64,000 nucleotides of DNA from Azolla caroliniana (taxonomy: Eukaryota > Plantae > Polypodiophyta), in assembly GCA_043228905.1 (NCBI GenBank), contig JBHGNT010000014.1:12338001-12402000 (forward strand), written 5' to 3'. The position numbers and the translations under genes were made by a program. Each line of letters begins with the position of its first letter. The first letter of the stretch is position 1. Below the pieces are notes generated by a model. That model did not search any database and was not told the origin of the DNA. It worked only from the letters and a program-made list of their open reading frames with translations. This document shows positions 1 through 46,926 of this stretch, piece after piece.

Positions 1-1684
1 GATTGGTCAAATTCCTAACGGTGCGAGCCAATCATGAAAGGAATCGAGATAGTCTCGGAGGCGAATCCTCGGATTTTTAGAGCGGACTATTGAAGCATGG
101 GGCACAAATAGTCCGAGCAATCACAAGACCCCACAAGAAAGAAGAGTGCGTGGATTGCAAGGAGAAGCAACATGTGTCACACCTAGTGGCGCATGTAAAC
201 TAGTACTACCCGACAAGAAGCACAAGCACCGGATACAAGAATTCGAGAAGATGCTGAAAGAAGAGAACATAATAGAAGAAGGAGAGTTCGTGACTCATAT
301 TATGGAAGAAGCCTCATTTCACGACACCATCGGCGAAATCGAGGATGTCGTGGACTTGAGCTATCTTCACAACCAACGCGTGATTTCGGTTAACTCCGTC
401 AACATGTACGCTATCATCGATGAATACCGTCGTGGCATCTCGATGAAGGAAGCTGACATCAACACGAAATATAAAACGATGGATAAGAAGATCAAGCCAG
501 TTGCGGTTCCGCTACCGGAAGATAGCTGGCAAAAGATGAAGGAAGTCGCTAATGATCCAAGCTTAAGAGATCCGAAGAAGATAGGTCATGTCTTCACCAA
601 AGAGACGAAGGGGAAGCTACGAGTTGGAAAGGAGGATTTCCTTCTCCCTGAAGAGGAGCGAATGTTTCGCGATATGCTTGAGAGACATGGGAAGGCTTTC
701 ACATTCTTCCCACGAGAAATTGGATGCGCCGACCCAAAGGTAATAGAGCCGATGGTGATCTTCACGGTGCCTCATGTGCCTTGGAATTTGAAACCGATAC
801 CGGTTTCGAGAACACACCTTCCGAAGCAGATCGAGCTCTTAAAGGAGAAGGTGAGTATGGGAATTCTGGAACCGTCGAATGCTCCTTATTCCAATAGGTG
901 GTTCACGGTGCCGAAGAAGAATGGATCATTGCGATTCATCCAAGATCTTCAACCCGTCAACAAGGTGACAATTCGAAATGCCGGAATCGGTCCGAGCGTG
1001 GACGAATTTGCCGAAGCGTTTGCGGGCCGGTCCATCTACTCCATTGGCGATCTCTACTCCGGATATGACCAATTCCAATTGGCGATCGATAGTCAGGACA
1101 TTACAACCATGAGGACTCCGATCGGGCTTGTGCGGATGTGTACCTTACCCCAAGGCGCAACGAACTCTGTGGCTCATATGGGGAATGCCATGAATAAAGT
1201 CTTGAAGGATTGCATCCCGAACATCACGATGCCATTCTTGGATGATATTCCGATAAAAGGATGTTCGGATGAGGAGAAAAATGAATCGAAAGATAAGGAA
1301 GGTTGTAGAAAGTTCATTGCGGATCATATGAAAGATTGCGAGAAGGTGCTTCAAAGGCTCGAAGATGCGAATTTGACATTTTCGGGAGAAAAATCCGCAT
1401 TCGGGCAACCGGAGATCTTGGTGGTACATCACTTGTGTGGAGCATACGGCTGGAAGCCCTCGCCATCCAAAGTGAACGCAATCCAAGACATGAAAGAAGA
1501 ATGCGTGCGAAGACCTGAAGAAGAAGCGCGAAAGATGATGGAGGCAGCCCGAGTAAAGAGCAAAGTTCGGTTCGACAACACGCATCGACTTCGTCCCGAG
1601 AAGATTGAAGAAGGGGATTGGGTTTTGGTTTACGACAACACTCTTGACAATCAACACAGTACAACAAGGAAGTTCGCAAGAAGA
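1..1684 (+). pseudogene. Ty3/Gypsy protease tail + RT fragment, internally deleted (RT fused to integrase C-terminus)
   Basis: ORF 146..1687 has RT motifs (RWFTVPKKNGSLRFIQDL, GDLYSGYDQF, LPQGATNS, PFLDD). Near 1505 it jumps to the integrase tail (RFDNTHRLRP..EGDWVLVYD), so RNase H and the integrase core are missing. Confidence 0.9.
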
Positions 1685-2039
1685 TGAAGCTGGTGAGACG
1701 ACGGCATCCGGCGGCAACCGGCGACGGATGCCGTCGCCGGTGAGACGACGGCATCCAGCGAGGCACCGGTAACCGACGACATCCGACGAACCGGCGTCCG
1801 GAGACTAGATAAATAAATATATAAATATATATACATATATACATATACAAGAAGGGCAAGGAAGGATTCGAACCTTGCACCTCCAAGTTAAGAATCAATT
1901 GGCTTACCATTAAGCCATGCTATTTAGTTGAAATTATATTTCTATCATTGGCTTAAGTTGTATTCCTCTTCCTCCTAGTCAAAAACCTCGGCAGTTCCCA
2001 CTCGACTCACGCAACGATCCGGAGCCGAAGGGCACGACA
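1685..2039 (+). repeat. Partial Gypsy LTR ending ...GGCACGACA (5' LTR of element A)
   Basis: The last ~88 bp match 11927-12014. A PBS follows 4 nt downstream. The left boundary is approximate. Confidence 0.75.
1853..1920 (-). promoter_or_regulatory. tRNA-like Pol III cassette (A box + B box) inside LTR
   Basis: Minus strand reads TGGCTTAATGG (A box, 1907-1917) ... GGTTCGAATCC (B box, 1864-1874), with T-arm AAGG-TTCGAAT-CCTT. No intact acceptor stem. Confidence 0.65.
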
Positions 2040-2043
2040 CAGT

Positions 2044-2061
2044 TGGTGAACCCGACGTGAA
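2044..2061 (+). promoter_or_regulatory. Primer-binding site complementary to tRNA-Trp 3' end
   Basis: TGGTGAACCCGACGTGAA is the complement of the plant tRNA-Trp 3' end (..TTCACGTCGGGTTCACCA). The same 18-mer is on the minus strand at 10807-10824 and 18006-18023. Confidence 0.85.
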
Positions 2062-2078
2062 AACCGGGTGGCAAGGAG

Positions 2079-3822
2079 ATGGAAAATCAACCGGAGGCTA
2101 GCAACATGATGATGATGTTCGAGCGCATGCTACAAGAACAACACGCGATGTCGGAGATAGCGGCATCAGTGGAGCGGCTCGTCCAACGAAACGGGCAATT
2201 CAACGGGAAAGACGTGTCGCGGTATCTTCGGGACAACAAGGCGGAGATGCTACGGTGCGGAATATCGGAAGGACTGCAAGTGACGTCCTTCAACCGGGTG
2301 GCGACCGACGCGCTTCAAGCAAGCATCCATGGGCTACGACAACAAAATCTGACATGGGAGGCATTTGAAGAAGAGCTAAAGAGGACGTTTGCCATCGAGG
2401 ATTCCTCCAAGGCGACGCGAAGGGGATTCGAAGATTGGGTGGAGACGCCGGACAAGGGATTGAAGGTCGTTGATGTGTTTTCGGCATTTGAAAGCCGGTT
2501 CGGGAGGTTGTCCGCGAGAGATCAAGCTATCCTCGTACCGGACAAGGTGATCATGTTCTTGCGAGCCGTGGACGTCCGGAACCGGAAAGATCTCGGAGTG
2601 CTCTTGGAGGACACGACCACGGAGAGTGACCTCACTGAAACATGGGAAAGCGTGCGGGATATCGTCGCGCGATACATGAAGAGGGGGCAATGGCTTGCCA
2701 ACGAGGAAAAGAGGGTTTTGGAACCGATTCCGAAACCGAGAACCGGATTGGAAGACCATCAACCGAGGGCTCGGGAGACTACAACCGAGAAGGGGATTGA
2801 TGCATCTACGATGGAGCAACTATTGAAGGAGATGGAGAATCTGAAGATCGCGATGGTGAAGAAGTCGGATGACCGCCCCACAAGCTCCAAGTATACGGAC
2901 CGACGGTGCATATGGTGCGATAGCGCCGAACACGATCGGAGGGATTGCGACGAGCATAAGGAGGTGCTACGGCAGGATCTCATCTACTACGAGGGAAACC
3001 GGATTCATTCGATGGACTCTCGGAAGCCACTCCGACCGAACTTCCGGAAAGGCGGCATGAAGAAGGTGCTCGAGGAGGAATTAGCAGCAAGAAGCAACTA
3101 TGCGACAACCGCGGGAATATGTGTTGGGGAGTCATCGAGAGCAAAGACGTCTTTTTGGCCGGAAGTTCTAGAAAACACCGAGAAAACCGACTCCAACGAG
3201 ATCCGAAGCACCGTGGAAGGCGTCCGAGAAGCTACGGGATGGGAGTGCCCTGTCGACAAGAATAGCGTATACGCCCTATGTCAATTGCATAAGGTGTATG
3301 TGGACGAGAAACGACAACGCATGGAGGATGCGGCCGGGCCATCGAAGATACCGGAAAGTTGGAACTCCGGAGGTAAGGGAAAAGAAAAGGCGACTCCGGC
3401 ATTCAAGCTCGCCTTGGACATAGAACAACAAACCGACTTGAAAAGAGTGTTCGAGGAAAGAATCATGGATAGCCGGGTAGATTTCTCGCTTCGGGAGCTA
3501 CACCAACCATGGATGGAAGATTCGGGCGGCCACCAAAGCAACGGAAGATCTATTTGTGGCTTGTCCGGATGTGACGGTGAAGATCGGGGATGTCGAGATT
3601 GACCAAAATTTATTCGTGCAAGATGAGGTTTCACATTCCGTCATCCTCGGCCAACCCTTTATCACGGCATCACGAATGGAGATGAATGTGCTCGATAGCA
3701 GTGCGGCTTTTGCGTGAATTCGGAGCCAAAACAGTGGGAAATCCGTCCAATTCCTAATGGTGCCGGCGAATCATGAAAGGAACAAGAGGGAACTCTTGTC
3801 CCAAGTGAGAATGGATTTTTAA
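2079..3822 (+). pseudogene. Gag(-protease) ORF1 of element A, disrupted
   Basis: Capsid-like region (FNGKDVSRYL), zinc knuckle CIWCDSAEHDRRDC. A deletion near 3500 removes the protease active site. The frame ends GAT TTT TAA. Confidence 0.8.
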
Positions 3823-6800
3823 AGAGGACTGTTGCGGAGTGGGGAAGTGATAGTCCGAGAAGCCCTGATACCCCACAAAGGAAGAAAACTCTCGGAGCAA
3901 AACATGTACGAATCGGTTCGGATGGGGAATCTACGTACATGACCGTAACCGGAGGTTTGAAGAAAGGATACCGACAACTGGAGGATAAGTTGCGGTCGGC
4001 ATCAATAATAAAAGAAGATGAAGAAATCATGGGGAGAGTCGAAGAAGTGTTCTATGGGAGCATGCTACAACGACTTGAAGAGCTTGCGGAAGATAAAAGC
4101 CAAGGAACCGGGTAGTCCCGGTGGAATCGGTCGAGATGTACGAGATCATTGCGAAAATGGAGCCGGATACGCTCCGCAAAGAAGAAGCAATGGTAAGTAC
4201 GAAATACAGGACCGTGGAGAAGAAGGTGAAACCGGCCGCGGGACCACTACCCGCCGATAGCGAACAAAAGAGGAAAGAAGTCTCGGGAGATCCGACACTT
4301 CGGAAGTCCGTGGATATCGGACATGCCTTCATCGATGAGACCCGGAAGAAACTTCGGATCGGTGGAGGTGGGTTCCTATTACAAAAAGAAGAAGAACGGT
4401 TTCACGAGATGTTGGAGCAACACGGCAAAGCGTTTGCATTTACATCAAGGGAGATAGGGTGCGTCGATCCGAGAATAGTGGAGCCGATGGTGATCTTCAC
4501 GATTGACCATGTACCGTGGAACCTGAAGCCGATTTCGGTGCCACGAGCGCATATTCTGAAAGTCATTGACTTGCTCAAGGAGAAGGTGGCGATGGGGATT
4601 CTAGAGCCATCAACTGCTCCGTACTCAAATCGATGGTTTACGGTTCCGAAGAAGAATGGGTCACTCCGATTTATCCAAGACTTGCAACCGGTGAATAAGG
4701 TCACGATCCGGAACTCGGGAGTCGGTCCGATAGTGGACGAATTTGCGGAAGCTTTTGCCGGTCGTGCGATATACTCCATCGGAGACCTATACTCGGGGTA
4801 TGAACAATTCCAACTAGCCGTGGAGAGCCGAGACATCACAACCATGCGAACACCTATAGGATTAGTCCGAATGTGCACACTAGCACAAGGAGCGACAAAC
4901 TCGGTTGCTCATATGATGAACGCGATGAACAAGGTGCTTCGAGACTGCATTCCGGAGATAACGATGCCGTTCCTCGATGACATTCCGATGAAAGGATGCG
5001 CGGTAGAAGAAAAAGATGAGACTATGGATGATCCGGGATGCCGAAAGTTCGTGGTCGACCATATTCATGATTGCGAGAAAGTGTTGCGAAAGCTAGAAGA
5101 TGTGCACCTAACACTTTCCGGGGAGAAATCGGCATTCGGGCAAGAAGAAATATTGGTGGTCGGACATCTATGTGGGCCCTACGACCGAAGACCGTCACCA
5201 ACAAAGATCGATGCGATTCAAGCTATGGAGGAAGTATGCGAGTCAACATCCGAAGTCCGAAGGTTTCTCGGTGCATGTGCATTCTATCACATATGGATTC
5301 TGCACTACGCACATATAGCGGACCCGCTCTACCACTTGTTGCGGAAAGGTAAGAAATTCGAATGGAAACCGGAACACACCAAAGCCATGAAGAAATTGAA
5401 GAAGACACTTCGGAGGGCGGAAGCACTTAAGAAGCCAAGCTACGACCGACCGATCATAGTAACGGTTGATATAAGTCCAACCGGTATCGGGTGGGTCATC
5501 AATCAAGCCGACTCGGATGGTTCGCGGTATCCAATCCGATTCGGAGCAAAGGTTCTCAACGAAAGGCAACGTGGATATGCACAAGTCAAAAGAGAACTGT
5601 GGGGAGTCGTGTCGGCGATAAAATCGGATCGGGATTATTTGATCGGAGCTGAAGTGGTGATCGAGACGGATTGTCTTTCGATACTCAGGATGATGCGGTG
5701 TTGTACGATACCGGATGTAGATATGCTAAGGTGGGTTGCATATGTCAAGTCGCTTAATCTAGAGGTTCGACACATCTCGGGGAAGGACAACGCGGTAGCG
5801 GATATGTTATCAAGGGCTCGGTTCGGAGACGACATAACCGAATCGGATAATGAAGAAGTTTCCGAAGACTACTTCGCGTCGGAGCACATATGCCGAGTGA
5901 ATGTAATCCGAGAATTCCGTGAAGAAGAATACGAGGGAGAAAGCTTGATGATCGGAAAGATGTTACAAGAGGCCGAGGATTCAACAAACGATAAAGGATG
6001 AAGAGCCGAGATCCGAAGGAAGAAGAGGCAAGTCCAAAAGTTCTTCTTGGAAAACGGATTAATATGGAGGGCCCCGAAAAGACCGGATGGTATACCACTT
6101 CGAGTAGTCGGGACAAAAGAGCAACGAAACCGGATAATGTCCGAGTTTCACGAATCCGATTGGGCTGGACACCGAGGAACATGGGAAACATTTGTGAAGA
6201 TCAAGCAAAAATATTGGTGGAAGAAAATGTACAAAGATGTCGCGGAGTTCACGGAAAGCTGCGAGAAATGTCAAGTCTACTCCGGGGTTCGACATCGAGA
6301 TAAGTTACATCCGACATTCTCACCGACAATCAACTTCAAGTGGATGGTCGACATAGTGGCCATGCCGACCGGGATCGGACAAAAGAAATACTTGGTATTA
6401 GCTCGGGAAGATCTCACGAATCAAGTAGAAGGTCGAGCGCTTCAGAGGAAAATGTGTTCCGCGGTATGCCAATTTCTTTTGGAGGAAGTATTTTGCAGGT
6501 ACGGGTGCGTAGGACAAGTGATTGCGGACCGGGGAGAACTCGACTCGGACAAAGCTAGGGGATTCTTCGCCAAACACGGAGTTCGGTTATCGCTGACAAT
6601 GGCATACAATCCGGAGGCCAACGGGAAAATCGAACGTGGACATAGTCCGATCGTGAAAGCACTTGCGAAGGCATGCGATGGAAAGGTGAAGGACTGGCCG
6701 CAGATGCTTCCGTATGCACTATGGGCGGATCGGACGACGCATAGCTCCGTAACCGGTTACATGCCGGCAGAACTCATGACCGGACAAGCACCGGTAATGC

Positions 6801-7050
6801 CGACAGAAACTGCGATTGTAACATGGACAGTGCTACCATGGAAGGAAGAGATGAGCCGGGAAGAACTACTAGCAGTCCGGATACGACAACTAGAGGGGAA
6901 TGTACCGATTGTCCGAGTTGGAGGGAACAATACTACGAGTGCCTATAGCCGGGAAGCGGGTGAAGATTTTCAAGAGGCGGACCGACGACAAACCCTATGT
7001 GATCCAAGCCAAGGCCGACAACGAGGAGCAATCAGACGAAGACCACGGTG
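3813..7050 (+). pseudogene. Pol (RT-RNase H-integrase) of element A with frameshifts and a deletion
   Basis: ORF 4121..6001 has RT PFLDD and RH. ORF 6047..7051 has the HHCC finger and the integrase core (IADRGE, NGKIERGH). ORF 6900.. is the integrase tail. No chromodomain seen. Confidence 0.9.
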
Positions 7051-9652
7051 ATGCGGGAAGCGAAGAAAGTGAATTACAACTCATAGTCGACATAAGGGGA
7101 GAATCGGAGGAAGCTTTGGGTGAAGACGGATATGAGCAATCGAGAACTTCGGCACATACCGGAGGATGTGCGGGTTCGGAGGGGGCGAGTGTCGTAGTGT
7201 ATTCCACACACTACGTGAAAACCATAAAATAATATATCCGATTTTAGATACATATAAATAAATAAATAATATATCAAAACATTTATCACATGCTTAGGGC
7301 AAGATTCGAACCCTACACCTCGACGTAGATAAACCCCAACTTTACCATTATAATAACTTATCTTTAGTGTTATATATATAGATTTAATACGTATAAGACC
7401 TTTATTTACACATACCTTTATTAAAAGGTAAAAATCATGTATTCTTTAGGGTGTGAATATTTTATTTACACGTTGTCGCGTTGTTACGCGCGTGCGTGGG
7501 GAAAGGCGGGACCACGGGGGTCTTGGACTAGGGAGCGACGGAGCGTAGGAAGTCGCACTTCACCGTTTCCGGGGCATCCCAGAAGCACACCGGAAGCAAC
7601 CGAAGGGAGAGAGAGAGGGAGCGTGCTTAACACCGACTCACGCACACACACACACACACACGCACACACAGCCCAACCCGACTCACGCCTTATGTACAGA
7701 AAACGCAGGAAAGGGTAGGCACCCGACGCCAACAACGACGCGAATATACACAGACAAACGTATATATATATACATATAAAGGGAAGAATACATTCCCGGC
7801 GACGAGCCGGACTGAGGTAGGTTACAGTAGTTGTCTGCTACCAAGCCGCCGTCGGGAAGCTCTCAGCTCGTCGCGCCGAGCGGGGTCTTGCACAGGAGGC
7901 CGAACCCAAGCCAACCCTAAGCGAACACGAAGGGGGAGAAGAAGAAGAAGAAACTAACTCTAAACCTAACGGTATACCCTCTAATGCAAAATGGGCAACC
8001 CTTACACAAAGTGCGTTCCCTTCCTTTTATAGAACAAGGAAAGGGGTGCGTTACAATGTGGGACAAAATCTCGACTTACATGGGATCGTCTGTCCCGACT
8101 TGACTACTCTTCGGCGCCATAAAGGCACCCTCGATATTCACACTAAATGTACACGGGTGCGTACACACGCTGCACCCTGCCGATGTAGCCAATGTTTCCC
8201 AGTTTCCGCCTCTGGCCGAAATTCTTCACGACATCCACCCCCACCTAACTGCACGTCCACCGGTACGTGCCAAATCTGGATGAAGGGTGAGAGATTTCGG
8301 CCGGCGAGAAACCGGTCTTCCGTGATCCGCATCCCGGCTCGCTGCCGGTTTGATCCGTCGGCTTCGATTCTTCCTTCGCGCTTACCTCCCCGTAGGCTCG
8401 TCCGACCCGTCGATGGGTCCTCTGCCGCGATCTCCATAGTACGCGTACTTCCGTTGGCCCTTGTTCGGCCGTATGAACACCCCGCTTCCCGCCGTATGCC
8501 CGATGTCCTCCGTTTGAGGAACGCCCATAGCGGCCCGCTCGGCCTCCGTTGATCATTCGCGTCGTCCTGATTGCCGTCCCATTGTCGTTTCGTGTTGCCC
8601 TCGTCCTCTCGCCGCCACCTTCCTTCTCCATAGTCTTACATCGCTGCGTCGGCTCGAACCGCCATGGTCTCCGAAACGGTGTGGGGATCCCTTTCCGGTC
8701 TTCTCCGCGATACCTTCGAACCGCGCAACCTATCTCCGCGCTCACTTTTCTGCTCCGGCACCTCCGTGTGCCATGTACCCTCGCCCGTTGTTTGGCACCG
8801 CCTATGTCGCACTCTGGTTTATTGCACGCCTTGTCGGCCCCCTTTTTAGCCAGATCGTGCATCATCGTTCACCCTCATACCGACGTCCTTTGCATCCGAG
8901 GAACACCACGTAATAGCCCGCTTGGCCTTTCCTGTCTTCGTGCTGCCGCGATAGGTCCTGAGTCTTCCGCTTGCCGTCGTCCCCTCGCCCCCCACCAGCT
9001 TGTCACCCCGGGCTTGCCGTGTTAGTCTTCGCTACTTCAACAGAGCTACCGAGATCTACGAAGCGAGTGTGGAGGATCCTCCTCCGGCCTCTCTTGCCAT
9101 CCCCTGACTCCGACCCTGTGCAGTCCACTAGGCACTTGTCACCTCGTTCCCGGCACCTCCCTTGGGCCGTCTTCCGCTTCCTTCGTTTGGCCCCGCCCGC
9201 GCCGAACACTATCCCGTAGACACGCTTTGATCCGGCCCGTGATGGCCCCTTGCGAGACTCTTATTCCGTCCAAGGTGTGCCTTTTCGGCTTGACACACCT
9301 CCCCGTGTTTGCCCCTGCCGGCTCCTTCCGAAACCTCGTGTCGTCGGGTCCCGTTCCCTGCCGCCACCTTCCTTCTCCCTCGGTCTTACGTTGCCACGTT
9401 GGCCGAACAGCCGGAGTCTTCGGATCGGTGTGAGGGTCCCATAGGACCGGACTCCGTTTCTATGCTTGCCGAAAGTCGGGTGCCTTTTGTTTGAGTCCCT
9501 CCCGGACTCTCCTCGTGTCTTCCGCGTAGTCGGGTTCCGTTTCCGCCGCCACCAACCTTCTCTCTCGGTCTCATGTTGCCACGTTGGCCGTACCGCCGGA
9601 GTCTCCGGTTAAGTGTGGGGATCCCGTAGGACCGGACTTTCTTACGCCCATA

Positions 9653-9874
9653 GCCTTCGTCACCTCGCCGCCACCGTCAGTATCATGGTCTTACGTCGAC
9701 CGCGTTGCCGACTGCCGAAGTCTCTAGAACCGGTGTGAAGGATCCTCCGTAGGCTTCCGATCCTTAGCCCTTGCCTTCGTCACCTCGCCGCCACCGTCAG
9801 TATCTTGGTCTCACATCGACCGCGTTGCCGACTGCCGAAGTCTCTAGGACCGGTGTGAAGGATCCTCCGTAGGC
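9653..9874. repeat. Two ~100-bp direct repeats (period 120) inside element B
   Basis: GCCTTCGTCACCTCGCCGCCACCGTCAGTATC...GATCCTCCGTAGGC at ~9653 and ~9773. Confidence 0.85.
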
Positions 9875-10791
9875 CCGCTGTTTTGGCTTCCCGACCCTGT
9901 CCCGGGTCGTCCTTTTCCGCAAGTCGAGAGGGCGATTTGTTCCGCACCCTCTCCCGTGGTACCGTGGTACCGATCTTCCGCCGTTGCGTGGCGCAAGTCC
10001 GTTTCCTCAGTCTCGGCTTGCGGCCTCCGTCTTTCCTCTTCCTCGATCATCACCTTGAGAGCTGCGTACGCCTCCGCAATCCTGGCCCCAGCGCCGACCC
10101 TTGCTGACTCTCTTTGCCGTTCGGCCTCTTCCCGCTGTGATGGCACGCCATCGCGTACCTTCCTCTTAGCCTTCTCGGCTCGCTCATCATCTAGCCGTTG
10201 GCACACCCTTCTGACCTTTGACCAGTCCTCCGTAAGCCCATTCGCTCCATCATCGTCTTCGAGCTCAATCCCGATGGCTTCCCGTTCCGCTCGGTCGATC
10301 GACCTGACTAACAAAAGGACTTTGTCCGCCCCCACCAAACCTTGTTCCCGCTCCGGGAGCCGAGCAAGCCGTCGCTCTAACTCTCGGAACGCCTTGGTCG
10401 CACCCCGGTGGGTCTTTGCCGATGCTACCCACTGGTCAAAGTCGTGTCGTCCCCGGCTCTTCCGCCATCCTCCGTATGCCTTCAGGAGCGCCTCTTCGAA
10501 GGCCTCCCACGAACTATGAGCCTCACGGAGCTCCTTTATTTCCGCATGCATCCGGACAGCCACGAACCGACAGAAGAACTCTAGCCTCAACGCCTCGTCT
10601 ACGCCACGCTCCTCCATTTCCGCGTTGTAGGCTTCCAAGTAAGATGGGACATTGTCCCCGTTGAAACGGCCGACACTTTCGACCACTCGCTCAACCGCTT
10701 GTTGCGCTGCTTCTCGCCTCATCACCACTCGTGCCGACTCCAACACCACTTCGGCCACCATCTCCGCAAGGTCGTCGTCTTCCGACTCCAT
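9844..10791 (-). CDS. Gag-like capsid protein of element B
   Basis: 315-aa ORF just after the PBS, homologous to element A Gag (GRFNGDNVPSYL vs GQFNGKDVSRYL; DKVLLLVRSID vs DKVIMFLRAVD). Confidence 0.8.
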   Translation of the reverse strand: MESEDDDLAEMVAEVVLESARVVMRREAAQQAVERVVESVGRFNGDNVPSYLEAYNAEMEERGVDEALRLEFFCRFVAVRMHAEIKELREAHSSWEAFEEALLKAYGGWRKSRGRHDFDQWVASAKTHRGATKAFRELERRLARLPEREQGLVGADKVLLLVRSIDRAEREAIGIELEDDDGANGLTEDWSKVRRVCQRLDDERAEKAKRKVRDGVPSQREEAERQRESARVGAGARIAEAYAALKVMIEEEERRRPQAETEETDLRHATAEDRYHGTTGEGAEQIALSTCGKGRPGTGSGSQNSGPTEDPSHRS

Positions 10792-12599
10792 CCTCCCTTG
10801 CCGCCTTTCACGTCGGGTTCACCAAATATGTCGCGTTGTTACGCGCGTGCATGGGGAAAGGCGGGACCACGGGGGTCTTGGAGTAGGGAGCGACGGAGCG
10901 TAGGAAGTCGCACTTCACCGTTTCCGGGGCATCCCAGAAGCACACCGGAAGCAACCGAAGGGAGAGAAAGAGAGAGCGTGCTTAACACCGACTCACGCAC
11001 ACACACCCACACACGCACGCACACACAGCCCAACCCGACTCACGCCTTATGTACAGAAAACGCAGGAAAGGGTAGGCACCCGACGCCAACAACGACGCGA
11101 ATATACACAGACAAACATATATATATATACTTATAAAGGGAAGAATACATTCCCGGCGTCGAGCCGGATTGAGGTAGGTTACAGTAGTCGTCTGCTGCCA
11201 AGCCGCTGTCGGGGAGCTCTCAGCTCGTCGCGCCGAGCGGGGTCTTGCATAGGAGGACGAACACAAGCCAACCCTAAGCGAACACGATGGGGGAGAAGAA
11301 GAAGAAGAAACTAACTCTAAACCTAACGGTATACCCTCTAATGCAAAATGGGCAACCCTTACACAAAGGGCGTTCCCTTCCTTTTATAGAACAAGGAAAG
11401 GGGTGCGTTACAATGTGGGACAAAATCCCGACTTACATGGGATTGTCTGTCCCGACTTGACTACTCTTCGGCGCCATAAAGGCGCCCTCGATATTCACAC
11501 TAAATGTACACGGGTGCGTACACACGCTGCACCCCGCCGATGTAGCCAATGTTTCCCGGTTTCCGCCTCTGGCCGAAATTCTTCACGACAACGTGACATT
11601 AAAAGTGACTCATGCACATCTAGCGTGCATGAGCCCTATACTTAGGAAATGACAAAGCATCACATGCACATTTAGTGTGCATGGACACAGTTGGTGAAAA
11701 AGCATGAAGCCATGCTTAGCCTCTTCCATCTTTATATAAGGAGGAGAGAAATACGTATAAGGTTGTTGATTAATATACAAGGATTGATCAATCTAATATA
11801 TTCGTGGGATTCACGAATTTTGCCATCTAAATTACTCTTATAATCTAAATATTGTTTTAAATACACTAAACTCGTCGGATTCACGAGTTTGCTATCTTAC
11901 TTCTCTTTCCACTATTCATAACTAGCCTTAAGTTGTATTCCTCTTCCTCCTAGTCAAAAACCTCGGCGGTTCCCACCCGACTCACGCAACGATCCGGAGG
12001 CGAAGGGCACGACAACACGAGCGGTTACAACCGAACAGGCCGGCGAACAGATGCCGATGCCTACTCGTCTGCGCACGAAAGGGGATAGGATGGAGGTGCT
12101 ACCGGAAGCACACGGGCGTTCCTCGAAGCAGCGCGAGCCTCCCGAAAACCTGCAGAGAAGAGCGATGGAGAACGAACAGAGGAGAAGCGTTCGGTTTCGG
12201 TCCGACAACACTTCGTCCTCAATAAAATTTTATATATCTGTCTCCTCGCATCTCCTTCTCTTTTATAGCTTCGAGAGGGGAGCCGTTTCCCTCATTAACT
12301 TCCTACATACCGAATCTAACTACCTAGGATATACCTTTGTACCCCATTCTCTATTATATACATTAAAGGGCGCGCACGCGTGAAGAGCCGGTTCACGCGC
12401 GCTATGCACCGATTACGCTAAGGGACGGTTTTCTTCACGACAGCGTAGTGGCGGATCTTCACGACAACGTGGAAGGAGCAAATGTAGTAGCGCTGGATTC
12501 GACACACAAGAACTTCCCGGTATGGGAACAAGGCGCAAGCAGAGTATTGTATTGTACCGATTACGCTAAGGGACGGTTTTCTTCACGACATCCGCCCCC

Positions 12600-15500
12600 A
12601 CCTAACCGCGCATCCACCGGTATGCGCCAAAATTGGGTTCTGGTTGGAGAAAACCGGTCTGGGTTCCGGTTCCTCGTCCAACGGTTCGTCCTCCGTTTCG
12701 GACTGTTCGTCGTCGCTGTCCAGGCCTCTTAGATCTGGTTTGCCGTCATGGCGCTTCTTGAACACTTTGATCCGCTTCCCTGCTACCGGTATCGCCATCC
12801 TCGTACCGTCGAGTTCCGCCAGGTGATACGTCCCGTTGTCGTTGGCGCTCGTCACCACGTAAGGTCCGAACCACCACTTGGCAAACTTCCGTGTTGCCCG
12901 GTGCTAGTTGTCGAGGCTGCTGTCGTAGACTAGCACCCAGTCGCCTTCCTCGATTTTCTTTGGTCGGAGCCGGTGCGTTCGGTCGAACCGGGCTTTGTTC
13001 CTCATCCTCGTCGTCCGAAGTCTCTCCGCCGCTCGTTCCACGTCCTCTGGCCTCTGCTCGAGCTGCCGTATACGTGCCGCTAGCAGTTCTTCCCAGCTCA
13101 TCTCGTCTCTCCAGTCCACTGTCGCCCAAGAGGAGATCGTCCGTTCTATCGGCATGATCGGCTTCTGTCCGAACATGAGCTCTGACGGCATGAACCCGGT
13201 TACCGAACTGTGCGTTGTCCGGTCCGCCCACAAGGCATAAGGTAACAGTCGTGGCCAGTTCCCGACCTAGCCTTCGCACGCCCGAACTAGCGCTTTGACG
13301 ATCGGTCCGTGTCCGCGCTCCACCTTCCCGTTCGCCTCCGGATTGTACGCTGTGGTGAGCGAGAGCTTGACCCCTAACCGGTCGAACAGCTCCTCGGCCT
13401 CTTTGGCGTCCAACTCCCCGCGGTCGGCCACGATCTTCCCGACACACCCGTACCGGCATATCACGTCCTCGATTAGGAACCGACACACGGCCGCGGTCGT
13501 TTTGTTCTGCAGGGTTTGTCCTTCCACCTGGTTCGTCAGGTCCTCCCGGGCCAACACCAGATATCGCATCTGCCCTATGCCCATTGGCATCGTCACCAAA
13601 TCTACCATCCATTTGAAGTGGATGGCCGGAGGGTATGTAGGGTGAAGCTCGTCCCGATGTCGGACTATGGAGTGTAACTGACAGCTCTCACAAGTTGTCA
13701 CGAACCGATGCATGTCCCGGTACAGTCCCGGCCACCAATACTTCCCCTTAAGTTTCTCGAACGTGGCCCACGTCCCACTGTGTCCAGCCAAGGGCTGTCG
13801 TGGTAGGCCTTCAACAACTCCTCCTGTTCCTCCTCCATCGCCACTACTCGGAGCGGGATGCCGTTTCTCTTCTTCGGGTGCTTCCACAGGTATCCGTCCC
13901 GGAGAAAGAATCGGTATGCTTTCCTCGTTCTTTGTCCATGACGCGTCCGGCGTCATCGTCCTCAAGAATCCCCCAATCTGAAGCCACTCCCCGTCGTACT
14001 TGCTCTCATTGAAATCGTTAAGTGCCGGAGTGCTCCCCCCCTTGGTTGTTACGTAAGCCGCCTCGAAGAAGTCCACGCCGACTTCCTCGTCCTCCGAAAC
14101 CATGCCGCCATTGTCGTCGAATCGCGCCCTCGAAAGCATGTCGGCCATGGCATTGTCTTTCCCGGAAATGTGTCGTATTTCCGGATCCAGGGACTTGATG
14201 TACGCTATCCACCTGAGCATCGCCAGGTCTGGGGTTGCGCATCCGGAAACCATGCCGAGAATCGGCAGGCAGTCAGTCTCTATAATCACCTCTGTCCCGA
14301 TTAGATAGTCTTTATCGGCCTTCACCGCCGGAACGATACCCCAGAGTTCGCGTTTAACCTGGGCGTATCCTCGCTGTCGCTCGCTGAGGACCTTCGCGCC
14401 GAACCAAATTGGGAACCGAATGCCGTCCTCATCTTCTTGGTTGACGACCCATCCGATCCCGGGCGGACTTGTATCTACCGTTATGTAGATGGGAGTGCCT
14501 TTCTCGTAGACAACCTTCCGGAGTGCCGGAGCTGCAGCAAGAGCCTCCTTCATCTTTCGGACCGACTCCGTATGCTCGTCTCGCCACTCGAATTTTCGCC
14601 CCTTTTTCAGCAACCCGTACAGCGGCTCGGCAACGTGGGCGTAATGCGGGATCCAAATGTGGTAGAACGCGCATGCTCCCGAGAACCTCCGCACCTCCGT
14701 GACCGAGTTACAGTCGGGCTTCATTGCGGAGATGGCTTCCACCTTAGCCGGAGACGGTTTCCGGCCATACGGTCCGCATAGATGTCCGACGACCATGATC
14801 TCTGATTTCCCGAAGGCCGATTTCTCCCCGGAGAAGGTGAGCCTCGCGTCCTCTAGCCTCTGCAGCACCCTCTCGCAGTCGTCAATGTGTGTCGCCACGA
14901 ATTTCTGGCATCCGTCCGGTCCGATCGTTTCGTCTTTTTCCTCCACCGGACATCCCTTGATCGAGATGTCGTCCAAGAATGGCATGGTGATGTCCGGGAT
15001 ACAATCCCTCAGCACCTTGTTCATCGCATTCACCATGTGGGCCACCGAGTTCGTCCCTCCTTGTGGCAGGGTACACATCTGCACTAGGCCGAGAGGAGTC
15101 CGCATCGTCGTAATGTCTCTGCTCTCCACGGCTAGTTGGAACTGATCGTACCCCCAGTACAGATCACCGATCGAGTAGATCGACCTTCCGGCGAAGGCCT
15201 CCGCGAACTCGTCTATCGTTGGTCCGATTCCTACGTTCCGAATGGTCACTCTGTTGACCAGTTGCAGGTCTTGAATGAAGCGCAACGTCCCGTTCTTCTT
15301 CGGTACGGTAAACCACCGGTTCGAGTACGGGGCACTCGACGGTTCGAGGATGCCCATATCGACTTTCTGCCTCAACAGCTCCATCAGCTCCGGGATGTGA
15401 GCTCTCGGTACCAGAATTGGTTTGAGATTCCATAGCACATGCGGTACAGTGAATATCACCATCGGCTTCACGACTGTCGGGTCTACGCACCCGATCTCTT

Positions 15501-16152
15501 CCGGTGAGAATGCGAAGGCTTTCCCGTGCCTTCCGAGCATTCTCTGAAACCGGTCTTCTTCCGCCGGCAGTAGGAACCCGCCCCCACCGATTTTGAGCTC
15601 CCGTAGCGTTTTGTCGGTGAAGGTGTGTCCTATGCAGGCCGGATCTCGTAAACTAGGGTCCGACTCGACCCCCTTGATTCGCAACTCGCTGCCCTCCGGT
15701 AAGGGTGCCGCGACTGGCCTTACCTTCTGGTCCACAGTTTTGTACTTCGTGTTAACTCGGGCCGTCCGATCCGACTGGAGCCCCCGACTGAAGTTTGCGA
15801 TGACTTCGTACATCTCTTCCGAACAAACCGGTATCGTCCGGTCCTCTTTAAGGCCCTCTCCGACCACCTCTCGCAATATTCCCAAGGTATCGTCGAAGGA
15901 GACCGCCTCCACGGCACCGTTGATTTCCTTGCTGGGCCCGAGAACTCCGCACGCCCGAAGTCGCTCTTTCGCCCTTGTCTTTTCTCGGCCAACGACGCCA
16001 ACTATCGTACACCCTCCGTTGTCGGAGAAACAAAACTTCCTACTTATGGTACAAGGTTTCTTCGGTTTCCCCTCTGTCGTACATTTCTGGGGTTTTCCCG
16101 AAGTGTTCGGACTATTGCGGCCCCACGCCTTGACAACCCTCTCTAAAAATCC
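12600..16152 (-). pseudogene. Pol (RT-RH-INT) of element C
   Basis: ORF 13267..16629 (RT PFLDD, RH, INT) plus downstream pieces 12904..13233 and 12583..12858, separated by stops and frameshifts. Confidence 0.9.
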
Positions 16153-18010
16153 TCTCGGTTCTCGCCATCGAGGGACTCGCGGTTTCGCTCGTGGTTCGGT
16201 CGCACCGTCAGGATCTGGACCGAATGACGCCCGTCTTGACTCTTGACCCTCGCGTAAGCCGACCCGTTGTCCAGCACCTTGGTCTCGATCCGTGCTGCCG
16301 TAATGTACGGTTCTCCCAGTATAACCAGGTGCGAGGACGTCTCCTGCACAAAGAAGTGCTGGTCTATCTCGACATCGCCGATCTTGACTTGCACGTTGGG
16401 GCAGGCCCCGTGTAGTTCCTCGGTGGCGCGCGTCGCTGCCCATATCTTCAACCCGTGCTTGGTGTTGATCGGTCATTTCCCCTTCTTGTAGAAGTCCATG
16501 GACATCAGGTTTATTTCCGAACTGTGGTCCACCAACGCCACCACCGGTTCCTGAACATCTCCGATCTTCACCGGGGTTTCCGTGGTCGCTTGGGCCTAGT
16601 GTGGCCTCGAATAGTGGCTCTTCGCCCACTCATCTTCCAGCGCCATGTCCTCTATGTGCGTCGTCCGCACCTCCACCGGCCTTTCTAGTTCTGTCTCCGT
16701 CGACAACCTCTTCCTCTTCACCAAGTCTACAATGGAGTTGTGGAACTCCTTCTTGGCGATCCCGAGCACCTTCCGCAACGACAAATCCACCTTGCTGTCG
16801 AGGATTCGTTCTTCCAGGACCTTTCGTAGGTCCGTGGTCCTTTCGATCTCCGTGCCCAACCGATATCCGCCCTTCTTGTGGTTATCCTGGGCACTGGTCT
16901 CGCCGGCCTCGTTCCGTTTCGGTCTGAATCGGGTTTCGTATCTCTGTGAGGGTCCGGCCCCTCCGGTTTTACCTACCCGTTTGTCTTCAACCAGAGCCTC
17001 GTAGTGCTGGCAAGCTGCTTCGATGAAACCCGTCTTTTCTTCGACCAGGTCACTCCACCCGGTTACCTCCTGGACCCACTTCTCCGCGCGGTCCGCCTCT
17101 TCTTTCCGTAGTCGGGCACCGGCGAGGCCTTCCAGCATCGTCGGCCAGAACCCGACTTTGCTCTCCTTCTGGGCCTCGCTGCCTTCGACCCGAATACCGG
17201 CTGACGCCGAGTAGTGGACGGTCTCCGCGTGCCGGGCCGCCGCCTCTTCCATAAGCCTTTTCATTCCTCCTCGCCCGTCGTTTCGGTTTAGGGCCCTCCG
17301 GGTATCACTGGCGTGCACCCGACCTTCCCATAGGTACAGTACCCGGCTTCTCAAAGCCTCCGCAAAGTCCCCGCAGTCTTTCCGGATGTGGCCGACCTAT
17401 TTCCTGCCGGAGGCCGTCGGTCACGAGCCTGTTCGCCGCCTTCCCTCCGAGCATGGGCGATCTGGAGATCCTTTACCGCCCGTGTCAACTCCTCCAAAGT
17501 TGTTCCCCCGGACGAGCCTCTGACCACGCCGGTCGAAGCCGAACCGGTTTCGAGCCACTCCCGGGTCTCTTCCCTTCGCGCCTGTGGTATCGGTTCGAGC
17601 TTCCTTGCCGCGACAGGACCCGCCCCGGTCGCCCCTGTATCAGCCCACTCCCACTGTTTGTCAAAACGGCCGCAGACTCTTTTTACCGCGGCCCAGTCGG
17701 CCGTCAGCCTGTCTTCGGTTTCCAATAAGGAGCCCACTTGCTCCCGATCCCGTGCGTCAACCGATTTGACAAACAGTAGGACACGACTTGTGTCTAGAAC
17801 GGTCCGATCGAGTGTCGAAAGGCACGCAAAGCGTTCCTCAAACTCCCAGAGGAGTACCGACGCATTTCTTCCTTTGTTGGGGGACTCCACCCACTCCATG
17901 AAGCCCCGCTTCGAAAGCCGAAGCGTGTCATCGAGCCCGTATTTCTCCAGGAGCCGTACCTCTGCAAGATCCGACCCCCTCATCTTCTGCTCCTCTGCCG
18001 CCTTGTTCAC
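16143..18010 (-). pseudogene. Gag-protease ORF1 of element C, disrupted
   Basis: ORFs 17351..18010, 16596..17354 and 16143..16451. Protease-like LVDHSSEIN near 16515-16540. The frame ends GAT TTT TAG. Confidence 0.8.
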
Positions 18011-18682
18011 GTCGGGTTCACCAAAGATGTCGCGTTGCTACGCGCGTGCGTGGAGAACGAGGCGGGACCACCGGGGTCTTGAACCAAAGAGCAGGTGATA
18101 GAAGGGGAAAGAGAAAGAGAGAGACGCCCGGTTACGTATGAGCAAAGAAACACAGGGACACGACCCTGTCAACGTAGAAGACACGAATGGACACAGAGAC
18201 AGAGAGACACGAATGTTTGTATATTAATGAATGACAAATAAACAATAGAGCACGCGAGCGGTTACAACCGAATAGGCCGGCGAACAGATGCCGATGCCTA
18301 CTCATCTGCGCACGAAAGGGGATAGGATGGAGGTGCTACCGGAAGCACACGGGCGTTCCTCGAAGCAGCGCGAGCCTCCCGAAAACCTGCAGAGAAGAGC
18401 GATGGAGAACGAACAGAGGAGAAGCGTTCGGTTTCGGTCCGACAACACTTCGTCCTCCTCAATAAAATTTTATATATCTGTCTCCCCGCGTCTCCCTCTC
18501 TTTTATAGCTTCAAGAGGGGAGCTGTTTCCCTCATTAACTTCCTACCTACCGAATCTAACTACCTAGGATATACCTTTGTACCCCATTCTCTATTGTATA
18601 CATTAAAGGGCGCGCACGCGTGAAGAGCCGGTTCACGCGCGCTATGCACCGATTACGCTAAGGGACGGTTTTCTTCACGACA

Positions 18683-18706
18683 GCGTAGTGGCGGATCTTC
18701 ACGACA
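18683..18706 (-). repeat. 24-bp LTR tip of a further Gypsy copy, into which element C inserted
   Basis: Reads TGTCGTGAAGATCCGCCACTACGC on the minus strand, the same TGTCGTGAAG terminus as B and C. It abuts Copia gag sequence. Confidence 0.6.
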
Positions 18707-19603
18707 ACGTGGAAGGAGCAAATGTAGTAGCGCTGGATTCGACACACAAGAACTTCCCGGTATGGGAACAAGGCGCAAGCAGAGTATTGTATTGTCTCGC
18801 ATTTTGTGTGCATGAACAGATGCTTGGCTACATGAAGGATGCAAAAACGCCGAAAGAGGCCTAGGAAAATCTCCGGATGATTTTCGCCGTAAGTACCATG
18901 GCTCAGAAGTTGCAACAGACGGAGGAGCCAACATGGAGAAACCGACGGTGGAGACGCGCCAAAGTCGCAACATCAAAGGAGTTGAGATGTGTCTTCTGAG
19001 CAGACAAGCCGACTGAGAAGGTCGAGATACACGGAACCGGACGGGTCGTGGAAAGTGGAACCGGACCGGACGAGGAGCGAGAGATAGGCAGGAGGACATG
19101 AGGGGGAGTGGAGGAGAGGACCGACTACCATAGACACAAACACAGATACTGTGACCAGACCTCAAGTTAAGCTTGAGGGGGAGTGTTGAGTGGACAAGCT
19201 CAACCAGATCTGGATCGGTTGAATAAGCTAGAGCCGGATCGGAGTCCAGAATGGAGAATCGGATCGGAGTCTAGAAGCAGGAGCCGTATCAGATTGGAAC
19301 CAATAGGCCGTTAGAGGCCTACGAATCTAACCTAGTACGTAGGCATAGTTTTAGGAGTAAGCATCAGTCGCTTGTATGAGCATTGAAGTACTTGTCAGTA
19401 CTTTTAAGGACTTGTATAAAAGTGCTCACTGAGCACATTGTATGTACAATGTTATTATTTTGAATTGAGTTTATGCTTTTTGCTCTCTCTGCCTATCATG
19501 TGTATTCTTTGTTCTTAAGCTTCCATTAAACCTTCACTCTGTCTTATTGTTGGAATTCGACTGAGACGGTTTGTCTACAAGCTTTCGCACGTTATTCTTA
19601 ACA
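18707..19603 (+). mobile_element. Deleted Ty1/Copia remnant with 3' LTR 19184-19603
   Basis: Gag fragment (WEQGASRVLYC) joined to the 3' region, PPT TTGAGGGGGAG, LTR TGTTGAG...AACA. Confidence 0.8.
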
Positions 19604-27000: not shown

Positions 27001-27063
27001 ATAATGAGTACATGGCGCATCACTATGCGTATATGACGAAAGTGGCGGTAGTGTGTGAGCTGG
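24005..27063 (+). mobile_element. Degenerate Ty1/Copia element E (LTR remnant, gag, PR, INT); resumes briefly at 34434-34472
   Basis: KLDWSNYASWSYKMHQYLLG, WYVDTGASNHM, PEQNGEAERKNR. Reading EPE..YVEAEKDAN continues after the nested insertions. Confidence 0.85.
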
Positions 27064-28557
27064 TGTCGTGTGAATCTTCACACACTATGTAAAAAAATAA
27101 TGAAATAATTATTATAGATTAGATTAGTAGCTTACTATAGAAATATGGATATACTCAAGAGCTTCAAAACGTTTTTTACTATATACAAAATGGAGAAATA
27201 CATATCAAGTTATGTGAAAATAAACTTTGAGAAGATAGGGAAATTAGAACTATCCCACATAGATAGGAAAGTGAAAATAAAGTTTAAGAAGATAGGGAAA
27301 TTAGAACTATCCCATATAGATAGGAAAGTTAAGGCCTTGGCTATATAAGCACCTTGAGCTCCCTCATTTTTCATTTGTGCTAAGAGCACTTTGGCCACTT
27401 TGTCTTGATGGATGATGGTGGCCAAATTCCCTAAAATCGGAAACTGACCGGTAAACAAATCCGGAAACCGGTCCGGTAAGCAAATCCAGAAACCGGCCGG
27501 TATGCAAACCGGAAACAGGCCGGTAAGCAAAACCGGAACCGGAACCGGCAAACAAATTGGAACCAGAAACTGACCAGTATGCAAACCGGAACCGGAACCG
27601 GCCGACAAGCAAAACTGGAACCGGAACTGGAACCGGCTGGCAAGCAAAACCGGAATCCGGAAACTGGTTGGTAAGCAAAACCAGAAATTGGCCGGTAAGC
27701 AAAACCGCAACCGCAACCGGCAAGCAAACTGGAACTGGAATCGGTCGGCAAGCAAAATCGGAACCGGTCGGCAAGCAAAATGGAACCGGCCGACGAGGGA
27801 TTCGGTGATCGGGCGGAACTGGCTACCAGACGAGGTTGGACGCGGACGAACGGAAGATTGGATCATGCAACAAACTAAAGTAAAGTGAAGAGAACTAAAG
27901 TAAAGGCCATGTGGACGCAAGCAACTAAAGTTGGAGTGCATGCAAAAAGTAAAGGTCATGTGGACGGTCACATGCAACTAAACGAAAAAGTCATGCAACT
28001 AAAAATAGATGCAACTAAAAGAAAAAGCTAAACAACTAAAAGTAGAGGCCATGCAACAAAAAGTGGACATGCAGATGATCAAGGGGGAACTCCATATAAA
28101 ATTCCATTTTTTTTCCTACACTCAGGCTCTCTATATATATTATATTGTTTTTCTTTTCCTTCGGAGCTCCCCTATCTTATCGAAGCCATATCTCTCAAGT
28201 AAAACCCTAATTTCCTTACGAAAGCCATATCTTACTCATAACCCTAAATTTCCATACGGAAGCTATTCAACTCATAAAACCATAATCTCTTATCAAAGCC
28301 AAAAACCCTAATTTTCTATAGAATTTATATCTTAATTTCCTCTAATCTATTACTCTAGCCCTCTACATTAGCAAACTTTTTGTAATCCCAATCTTGGGAT
28401 TAATTGTAATCTTTCTTTCTACTTGTTAATGAAATTTGTTAATCTTTCTCATTTCGGTTAATTCTTAGTATATAAATACACGAATTTGATATCTTCTAGT
28501 CAAAGGCCCCGGGGTCTTGCCTTAACGTTCACGTATCCTCGTCGTATTTTCGCGACA
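27064..28557 (+). mobile_element. Gypsy-family solo LTR with internal tandem arrays
   Basis: Termini TGTCGTG...CGCGACA, flanked by CTGG / CCGG. TATA-like motif near 28130. Confidence 0.75.
27437..27800. repeat. AACCGG / GCAAAACCGG-rich imperfect tandem array
   Basis: Repeated CAAGCAAAACCGGAACCGG units. Confidence 0.85.
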
Positions 28558-28563
28558 CCGGAG

Positions 28564-43880: not shown

Positions 43881-44904
43881 TGTCGTGAAGTACGAAAGCT
43901 TCACATTAAAAGTCTACAATAAGATAAATATGTAACAAAAATAAAGTAAACCTTTATAATGTTTTATACATAAAGATAATATTAATAACAGACTATGATA
44001 ATATTATACAATATATGTAGAGGCAAAAATATATATTATATTACATGGACAAAAGAGGACTTGAACCATTAAACCCTAGCTTATAACACTCAAAGGTTAC
44101 CATTTAACCTATACTTATAATTTATAAAATATATAAAACCATGTAATATAATACATGCACACCATATAGCAAATTACATGGGCAAAAGAGGACTTGAACC
44201 AACAACCTTAAACTTACAACATTCAAATCTTACCATTTAGACTATGCTTGTAATGTGTATAAATATGTGTCTTCTTTTTATTTGAAGTAATATTATATGG
44301 TTTAAACCATCAAACGAGCTACATGTGCACCATATAGCACACATGCAAGAGGCTCTCTGTATGTGCGCCACATGGCCCACATGTAGAACCATCTCTTCCC
44401 TATAAAAGGAGAAGGAAGTATAGACAAAAGAAACCAAGAAATAAGATGGAAATGATTATATTGGATCTAGAGAAAGATATATTGTAATAGAGAAAGAGAG
44501 AGAGAAAGGTATTTTTAAAAGAGAAAAGAAGAACTAGCTTGGTGGTGGTGGTCCTCAACTCGCAACGGAAGGGCAGCGATTCAAGTCTTATACTTCTCGA
44601 GAGATTGAAGGGAAGACTATGGTCTACCATCAAGAAAGAGAAGAGTGATTATGTTATGAAACAAAGCTCGAAGGTTCAACGATGCTCGCAATCATTTTGT
44701 GACTCATTCATCAAATAATTATAAGTTTCTTTCATTCCTTCAAATATCATTCTATATCCCATCTTGTCATATCTTGTTGATCTCTATTTACTCTATCTCT
44801 ACTCTTTCGTCTCTTCCATCCATAATCCCAGTGATTCCTTCCTCACTTTCACGATATCTTTTGTCTACACAACGGTATGCTTCTAGGTGAGCCACGCCAC
44901 GACC
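43881..44904 (+). mobile_element. Probable Gypsy-family solo LTR with two tRNA-like cassettes
   Basis: Starts TGTCGTGAAG, ends CCACGACC, TATAAAA at 44401. The flanking pol-like reading (..EA|FDREMEIS) rejoins across it. Confidence 0.65.
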
Positions 44905-46640: not shown

Positions 46641-46926
46641 CGGTCTTGGATTTCAATAACTATTCTATCTATTGATTATCTTGTGTATTGTTGTGTATAA
46701 TCTTGTGTATTGCGGAATATTTTTGTGTATTATTGTTACCCATAGCCATCTTTAATACATCTCTTTTTTTCGGGAAAATTAGGGTTTAAACCCGTCAAGC
46801 CAAATGGAAGGGGAAGGAGGGTGTTTAGAATTACCTCTCAATGATCATCAGGATAGGGATGATGCTATTAGGACACAACAAGTGATATGATAGTATAGGG
46901 CAGAAAAAGAAAAGAAAACATCGTCA

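What the first reader, a model, noticed from the sequence alone, without database searches (positions are those of the whole stretch)
7470..11594. Gypsy family with 4-bp target duplications centred on CpG
Seen: element B has TSD ACGT/ACGT. Solo LTR 27064-28557 has CTGG/CCGG. Solo LTR 43881-44904 has GCGT/ATGT (degenerate). One-sided junctions are GCGT (18683), ACGT (18707) and ACAC (12015), where the sister LTR reads ACGC. All six sites are NCGN or a deaminated form of it. Copia and other insertions here have ordinary 5-bp TSDs (TAGTG, ACTAC, CGGAG). Established: plant LTR elements usually make 5-bp TSDs with weak sequence preference. Inference: the integrase prefers CpG, possibly methylated, which would steer insertion into existing transposons without a chromodomain.
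Basis: partly seen in the sequence, partly recalled or inferred. Interest (0 to 1): 0.8.

Follow-up and report, generated by a model that had tools for sequence, protein, structure and literature searches.

The report
Known CpG-targeting plant retrotransposon lineage
These jumping genes insert at a CG pair and duplicate four host bases, a habit already published for the moss Phygy lineage, to which they likely belong; whether they sense DNA methylation is untested.

Summary
Element B (7474-11590) has an ACGT/ACGT duplication, and contigs from 4 of 4 sequencing runs span the empty site with exactly 4 shared bases. Of 66 distinct outer junctions of the B/C families in metagenome contigs, 60 are NCGN and the other 6 are NTGN or NCAN; CG is 3.6% of flank dinucleotides. 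Neumann et al. 2019 already list the non-chromovirus Phygy clade as '4 bp (100%) (NCGN)' with a tRNA-Trp primer site. These elements match on duplication, motif, no chromodomain, no archaeal RNase H and, from recall, the primer tRNA. They are about 1 kb shorter, and I had no Phygy reference sequence for a tree. What this adds is a finer motif: ACGT is favoured (26 of 60), and T first or A last is avoided. Nothing tested here shows a preference for methylated CpG or steering into transposons. The scan earlier filed such elements under Phygy in this genome and saw NCGN sites in a likely fungal genome.

The parts
7474..11590 (-). Element B, 4117 bp, gag only (non-autonomous); 3' LTR 7474-8233 and 5' LTR 10829-11590, 96.7% identical; nested in the 3' LTR of element A
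   Evidence: tblastn finds only a gag match inside; B gag is 35% identical to A gag
7470..7473 (.). B left target duplication ACGT
11591..11594 (.). B right target duplication ACGT
10808..10824 (-). B primer-binding site TGGTGAACCCGACGTGA, 4 nt from the 5' LTR; the same 17 nt occur in A and C; tRNA-Trp by recall
   Evidence: tRNA identity not confirmed
8234..8249 (-). B polypurine tract next to the 3' LTR
9844..10818 (-). B gag reading frame (stop to stop)
1952..12014 (+). Element A: 5' LTR remnant 1952-2039, PBS 2044-2060, gag 2061-3602, broken pol to about 7229, 3' LTR 7190-7473 plus 11595-12014 (split by B)
12015..12018 (.). A outer junction ACAC; the sister LTR of C reads ACGC at 18252-18255
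12015..18682 (-). Element C: visible part of the 3' LTR 12015-12590, pol about 12703-16629, gag to about 18037, PBS 18007-18023, 5' LTR 18028-18682; its 3' outer junction is not in the window
18683..18706 (-). 24-bp stub of another B/C-like LTR end (element D); it begins with GCGT, which is C's outer junction
18707..18710 (.). D outer junction ACGT, in a copia gag
27064..28557 (+). Solo LTR S27, TGTCGTG...CGCGACA, flanks CTGG (27060-27063) and CCGG (28558-28561), in a copia pol; lineage assigned from termini and flanks only
43881..44904 (+). Solo LTR S43, TGTCGTG...CACGACC, flanks GCGT (43877-43880) and ATGT (44905-44908); lineage assigned from termini and flanks only
53..1687 (+). Pol fragment of a third related element (Z), internally deleted; no junction visible

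Best explanation
These are non-chromovirus Ty3/gypsy retrotransposons, likely of the published Phygy lineage, whose insertions sit on a central CG with a 4-bp duplication, likely because the integrase itself reads that sequence regardless of methylation. Shown: 4-bp duplication; central CG; ACGT favoured, T first and A last avoided; integrase with zinc finger, catalytic core and a weak SH3-like end, and no chromodomain or methyl-binding domain match. Inferred: the two active sites cut 4 bp apart, which needs a sharp bend at the central step. A flexible pyrimidine-purine step allows the bend, and base contacts narrow the choice to CG, since TA is never used. Also inferred: after insertion the site is methylated with the element and decays to TG or CA, and gag-only B was moved by pol from relatives such as A or C.
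For: Empty-site joint with 4 shared letters. 60 of 66 outer junctions NCGN, 6 of 66 NTGN or NCAN, 0 other. Centres: CG 60, CA 3, TG 3, TA 0, against backgrounds of 0.037, 0.069, 0.069 and 0.064, so bendability alone does not explain it. Among the 60: T first 1 (background 0.336), A last 0 (0.335), ACGT 26 (0.061). Phygy row of Neumann 2019: 186 elements, 4 bp (100%) (NCGN), tRNA-Trp 81%, no extra domain. Intact relatives, one 96% identical to A, show RT-RH-INT with no chromodomain, MBD or second RNase H match in Pfam at E<=1 (8 of 8 proteins). A model of a related integrase best matches foamy-virus and Ty3 integrases. Central YR enrichment is strongest for short duplications in retroviruses (PMC4422553, abstract). 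CG-centred 4-bp targets also occur in Ginger1 and in the Drosophila ZAM group; that Drosophila has almost no CpG methylation is recalled.
Against: No Phygy reference sequence was available, so clade membership is not shown by a tree; none of the hits listed is named Physcomitrium. A and C are about 6.6-6.8 kb, below the Phygy range of 7.7-10.0 kb. The tRNA-Trp assignment is recalled. TatI shares 4 bp and tRNA-Trp and is excluded only by the missing archaeal RNase H. Only 2 of 6 two-sided solo LTRs in the loci have perfect duplications; 2 have one mismatch and 2 have two. Indifference to methylation is assumed, not tested. The 66 junctions come from the B/C families only and mostly from one set of related assemblies.
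Confidence: 0.78

Rival explanations
1. The integrase, or a host partner, prefers methylated CpG, which would aim insertions at already silenced transposon DNA without a chromodomain.
For: All six window sites lie in transposon-derived DNA. CpG here is evidently methylated: 9 of 16 transitions between B's LTRs are at CpG. A 1992 paper on an effect of CpG methylation on retroviral integration in vitro exists (title only, in the reference list shown).
Against: No methyl-binding or chromo domain match. The window is mostly transposon, so nesting is expected. Only 27 of 66 flanks hit a repeat, with a small library and no baseline. Flank CpG is only mildly depleted (o/e 0.84). Site decay (6 of 66) is similar to CpG decay between B's LTRs (9 of about 60 sites over two copies), so methylation after insertion is enough. 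The ZAM group targets CGCG in a host recalled to lack CpG methylation.
Confidence: 0.13
2. A host bZIP or bHLH factor bound at ACGT-core boxes tethers the integrase, which would explain the ACGT bias.
For: ACGT is 26 of 60, a pyrimidine precedes the site in 39 of 60 (background 0.50, p 0.028), and B's target is CACGTG. That these factors bind ACGT cores is recalled.
Against: 34 of 60 sites are other NCGN words. A factor bound on the site would be expected to block it rather than expose it (inference). No protein evidence.
Confidence: 0.04
3. The elements belong to a separate 4-bp, CG-targeting lineage that is not Phygy (for example TatI-like, or a fungus-related clade).
For: Shorter than Phygy. 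The nearest named outgroups are fungal (Smittium, 43-45% in the RT region). Phygy was defined as specific to P. patens.
Against: Five listed Phygy traits agree. No archaeal RNase H, which 100% of TatI carry. Named relatives at 67-73% RT identity occur in Riccia and Adiantum, and Phygy is reported from a liverwort.
Confidence: 0.12

Closest known systems
Phygy clade, non-chromovirus Ty3/gypsy (Neumann et al. 2019, PMC6317226; passages, section 9 and Additional file 5 read; Additional files 1 and 3 too large to read)
   Same: 4-bp duplication, NCGN motif, no chromodomain, no archaeal RNase H, compact internal region, and a primer site recalled as tRNA-Trp.
   Different: About 1 kb shorter than the listed range. 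The host is probably not P. patens (inference). The finer VCGB/ACGT bias and a gag-only derivative are not in the passages read.
4-bp class in Jedlicka et al. 2019 (PMC6911290; passages read)
   Same: 4-bp duplications with a GC-rich central dinucleotide; Phygy nested in other elements.
   Different: Pooled across lineages; the word CpG does not occur in the main text.
TatI and Selgy clades (Neumann 2019, Additional file 5)
   Same: 4-bp duplications; TatI uses tRNA-Trp.
   Different: TatI carries an archaeal RNase H, Selgy uses tRNA-Ala, and neither is listed with NCGN.
Ginger1 DNA transposons (Bao et al. 2010, PMC2836005; passages read)
   Same: Gypsy-like integrase, TGT termini, 4-bp CG-centred duplications (CCGG 75%, CCGT/ACGG 24%).
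   Different: DNA transposons with inverted repeats. They favour CCGG, whereas here ACGT dominates and CCGG is at background (3 seen, 3.7 expected).
Drosophila errantiviruses of the ZAM group (PMC5408687; passages read)
   Same: Ty3/gypsy integrases with a palindromic CG-centred target (CGCG).
   Different: Insect elements with a different motif; the review calls sequence specificity exclusive to errantiviruses.
Prototype foamy virus and Ty3 integrases (PDB matches; PMC4422553, abstract read)
   Same: Same domain layout; central flexible pyrimidine-purine step tied to a short stagger.
   Different: Their sequence preference is weak; here the central CG is nearly strict.

Membership tests
Phygy | 4-bp target duplication | tested here: met
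   (joint with 4 shared letters); L058 and L070 perfect 4-mers, 2 of 6 two-sided loci
Phygy | NCGN target motif | tested here: met
   60 of 66, the rest deamination forms
Phygy | tRNA-Trp primer-binding site | tested here: inconclusive
   The same 17-nt site in A, B and C fits the plant tRNA-Trp 3' end by recall. No tRNA gene was found to confirm it. The only Rfam hit was weak: RSV_PBS, E 2.3.
Phygy | No chromodomain or other extra pol domain | tested here: met
   Pfam on 8 intact relatives; the model ends in a small beta domain and a disordered tail
Phygy | Polyprotein region spans nearly the whole interior, no extra ORFs | tested here: met
   A and C interiors (5150 and 5437 bp) are covered by gag and pol matches
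Phygy | Element length 7.7-10.0 kb (descriptive; the paper calls size of little value for classification) | tested here: not met
   A about 6.6 kb with a small integrase deletion, C about 6.7 kb, B 4.1 kb non-autonomous
Phygy | Falls in the Phygy clade in RT/RH/INT trees (the primary definition) | not testable with these tools
   Reference FASTA too large to read; no listed homologue named P. patens. A quick tree groups A, C and Z with Riccia and Adiantum elements.
TatI (OTA/Tat) | Archaeal RNase H domain | tested here: not met
   only the canonical RT-linked RNase H was found
Selgy | tRNA-Ala primer site | tested here: inconclusive
   site recalled as Trp rather than Ala; not confirmed by a tool
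Chromovirus (Tcn1, Galadriel) | Chromodomain after the integrase | tested here: not met

The most novel reading that the evidence does not exclude
Phygy-type integrases are readers of methylated CpG: they prefer methylated VCGB sites and so home to silenced transposon DNA with no chromodomain. The trait may be shared with fungal relatives and Ginger1 as an old integrase lineage that uses the host's silencing mark as its address.
Probability: 0.13. Interest if true: 0.72.

Novelty: new member of a known kind. Interest (0 to 1): 0.22.

Why it matters
As it stands, it extends a published oddity, the one sequence-specific plant LTR lineage in Neumann et al. 2019, to another non-seed plant (likely) and sharpens its motif. 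That helps annotation, because such elements need a 4-bp duplication setting and their sites decay to TG or CA. A nearly strict CG-centred plant integrase is also a good substrate for testing methylation sensing, which I did not find tested in 10 literature searches (four were on other points). If sensing were shown, it would be a chromodomain-free route to heterochromatin targeting.

Tried and rejected
No whole genome is held, so the genome-wide histogram could not be made; metagenome junctions replaced it. A protein scan of viral contigs found no relative. To identify the primer tRNA I scanned viral contigs for the site: 31 matches, 0 tRNA genes; two paper searches that included the site as a term listed no paper with it. 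The single-sequence fold was unusable (pLDDT 33.5), so the alignment-based fold was used (75.0). The ESM Atlas gave only generic RT-RH clusters. The careful tree did not finish, so the quick tree is reported (69 of 252 eligible rows; no starred set of up to half the rows holds the window sequences). A comparison of CpG decay in LTR bodies across loci kept only 3 of 66 loci and is uninformative. Rejected: a 5-bp duplication for B (5-mers differ; the joint shares 4). Rejected: pure bendability (TA 0 of 66). Rejected: the pattern biasing the flanks (the search pattern lies wholly inside the LTR). Rows dropped before the count of 66: 14 primer-side junctions, 5 bacterial-looking chance matches and 4 duplicates, of 89. 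L074 (TTGT) was kept although it lacks LTR continuation; without it the count is 60 of 65. The exact-match pattern holds four CpGs, so the set is biased to young copies. The host was not identified.
Full report
Setting. The window is a transposon-dense stretch with no genome held. Its left third is a nest of Ty3/gypsy elements. Gag-only element B (7474-11590, minus strand, LTRs 96.7% identical) sits in the 3' LTR of element A (plus strand), which sits in the 3' LTR of element C (minus strand). C sits in a 24-bp stub of another LTR end (D), which sits in a copia gag. Two solo LTRs, S27 and S43, share only the TGTCG...CGAC termini. A, B and C carry the same 17-nt primer site 4 nt behind the 5' LTR and a purine tract before the 3' LTR. 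Pfam gives RT, RNase H, integrase zinc finger and core in gypsy order. The best named homologues are from Riccia (about 60% over pol) and Adiantum, then the fungus Smittium. The host is therefore likely a non-seed land plant; earlier scan notes say fern, which I did not test.

Observation. All six junctions read as stated. For B the duplication length is settled independently: contigs from 4 of 4 runs (at most 3 samples) join 7469 to 11591 with 4 letters shared. S43 is the weakest site (GCGT/ATGT, end CGACC), but other copies end at the same places and their pooled flanks read CCGG before and A+CCGT after (low agreement as expected for mixed flanks). The comparison duplications are 5 bp: TAGTG is perfect, 'CGGAG' is CGGAG/TGGAG, and the ACTAC element was not examined. 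'Family' overstates it: these are at least five LTR families.

Outside test. A scan of metagenome contigs for the 19-nt terminus shared by B and C gave 89 loci. Fourteen were primer-side, 5 were chance matches and 4 were duplicates, leaving 66 distinct outer junctions. Sixty are NCGN and six are NTGN or NCAN; none is anything else. CG makes up 3.6% of flank dinucleotides (p 3e-79), and CG at other offsets from -8 to -2 occurs 0-5 times. At the opposite LTR end, 13 outer junctions seen give 9 NCGN, 3 deaminated and 1 other (AAGG, whose partner is ACGG); one of the nine is the same junction as L023 above. Of 6 two-sided solo LTRs, 2 have perfect 4-bp duplications, 2 one mismatch and 2 two mismatches. 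Decay, recombination between copies or chimeric assembly could explain the latter. The motif is finer than NCGN: among the 60, T first 1 (expected share 0.336), A last 0 (0.335), ACGT 26 (0.061), and a weak pyrimidine at -5 (39 of 60, p 0.028). The set covers two families, young copies, and mostly one group of assemblies.

What is known. Neumann et al. [quoted passage not shown] Their table gives Phygy as 186 elements, 4 bp (100%) (NCGN), 7656-9968 bp, tRNA-Trp 81%, no extra domain. Jedlicka et al. 2019 report GC-rich centres in 4-bp duplications and Phygy nested in Tcn1. Phygy was defined from P. patens and has since been annotated in a liverwort (two passages). The headline claim is therefore published. 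On membership: duplication, motif, domain content and compact interior agree; the primer tRNA agrees by recall only; length is about 1 kb short; and the defining tree could not be run because the reference file was unreadable and no P. patens-named homologue was listed. A quick tree places A, C and Z among unnamed close relatives, near Riccia and Adiantum elements, with fungal sequences outside. TatI shares 4 bp and tRNA-Trp but carries an archaeal RNase H, absent here. I put membership at about 0.85.

Mechanism. Intact relatives, one 96% identical to A, have no chromodomain or methyl-binding match and end in a weak SH3-like match plus an acidic tail. A model of a related integrase (P0339, 79% identical to A's; pLDDT 75) best matches foamy-virus and Ty3 integrases (low TM-scores, so domain-level likeness only). 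In retroviruses a short stagger goes with a flexible central pyrimidine-purine step plus base contacts by integrase (PMC4422553, abstract). Here the centre is CG 60, CA 3, TG 3, TA 0, so flexibility alone is not enough and direct readout of CG is the likely cause. Gypsy-type integrases have reached CG-centred 4-bp targets elsewhere: Ginger1 CCGG and the Drosophila ZAM group CGCG. The latter host is recalled to lack CpG methylation, so methylation is not needed for such a preference.

Methylation. CpG in these elements is evidently methylated (9 of 16 transitions between B's LTRs), and the target CpG decays at a similar rate (6 of 66). Both fit methylation after insertion and say nothing about the state of the target beforehand. 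Twenty-seven of 66 flanks match a repeat in my small library; without a genome baseline this neither supports nor refutes steering. The idea stays open at about 0.13; there is a precedent in retroviral biochemistry that I saw only as a title.

Earlier scan notes. e1-10618240 filed nested elements in this genome under Phygy, and e1-10582392 reported NCGN duplications in a likely fungal genome and pointed me to Ginger1. I had reached Phygy from the paper before reading them.

Verdict. A real, strong pattern and a correct reading of the target sequence, but an already described trait. New member of a known kind, interest 0.22.

Noticed in passing
window 12443-12590 and 18683-18795: C's 3' LTR holds a 113-bp copy of the DNA outside its 5' LTR (stub D plus copia gag), preceded on the element's strand by a second 38-bp copy of the LTR start. 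Flank acquired at insertion appears inside the other LTR; unexplained, perhaps gene conversion after insertion.
   Followed up: partly
window 2040-2043, 10825-10828, 18024-18027: A 4-nt spacer (CAGT, TATT, TCTT) separates the 5' LTR from the primer site in all three elements and in most primer-side loci; longer than the 2 nt recalled as usual, so the cDNA end may need a longer trim.
   Followed up: no
L023, L055, L061; window 18683-18706: Insertions into or beside the end of a related LTR: head-to-tail sharing ACGT (L023), or at GCGT about 20 bp inside the CpG-rich terminus (L061, probably L055, and C in stub D). The termini supply their own target motif.
   Followed up: partly
window 28558-28563 and 34429-34433: The right duplication of solo LTR S27 (CCGG) overlaps the left 5-bp duplication of a copia (CGGAG/TGGAG): two insertions 1 bp apart, order not decidable.
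   Followed up: partly
window 7474-11590: Gag-only element B belongs to a high-copy non-autonomous family: its whole interior is deeply covered in all four runs laid.
   Followed up: partly
window 45500-49050: Arrays of short repeats (units near 84-86 bp and 20-50 bp) between ACTAC-TG at 45778 and CA-ACTAC at 49044; element type not determined.
   Followed up: no
window 39173-39889: Three tandem 239-bp copies (96-98% alike) inside a copia pol region.
   Followed up: no
window 1690-1800: A short GC-rich repeated and partly palindromic stretch joins the deleted pol of element Z to AT-rich DNA before the truncated 5' LTR of A.
   Followed up: no
window 43560-43880 and 44905-45100: The host of S43 looks like a decayed pol of a different gypsy-type element (from translation by eye).
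   Followed up: no
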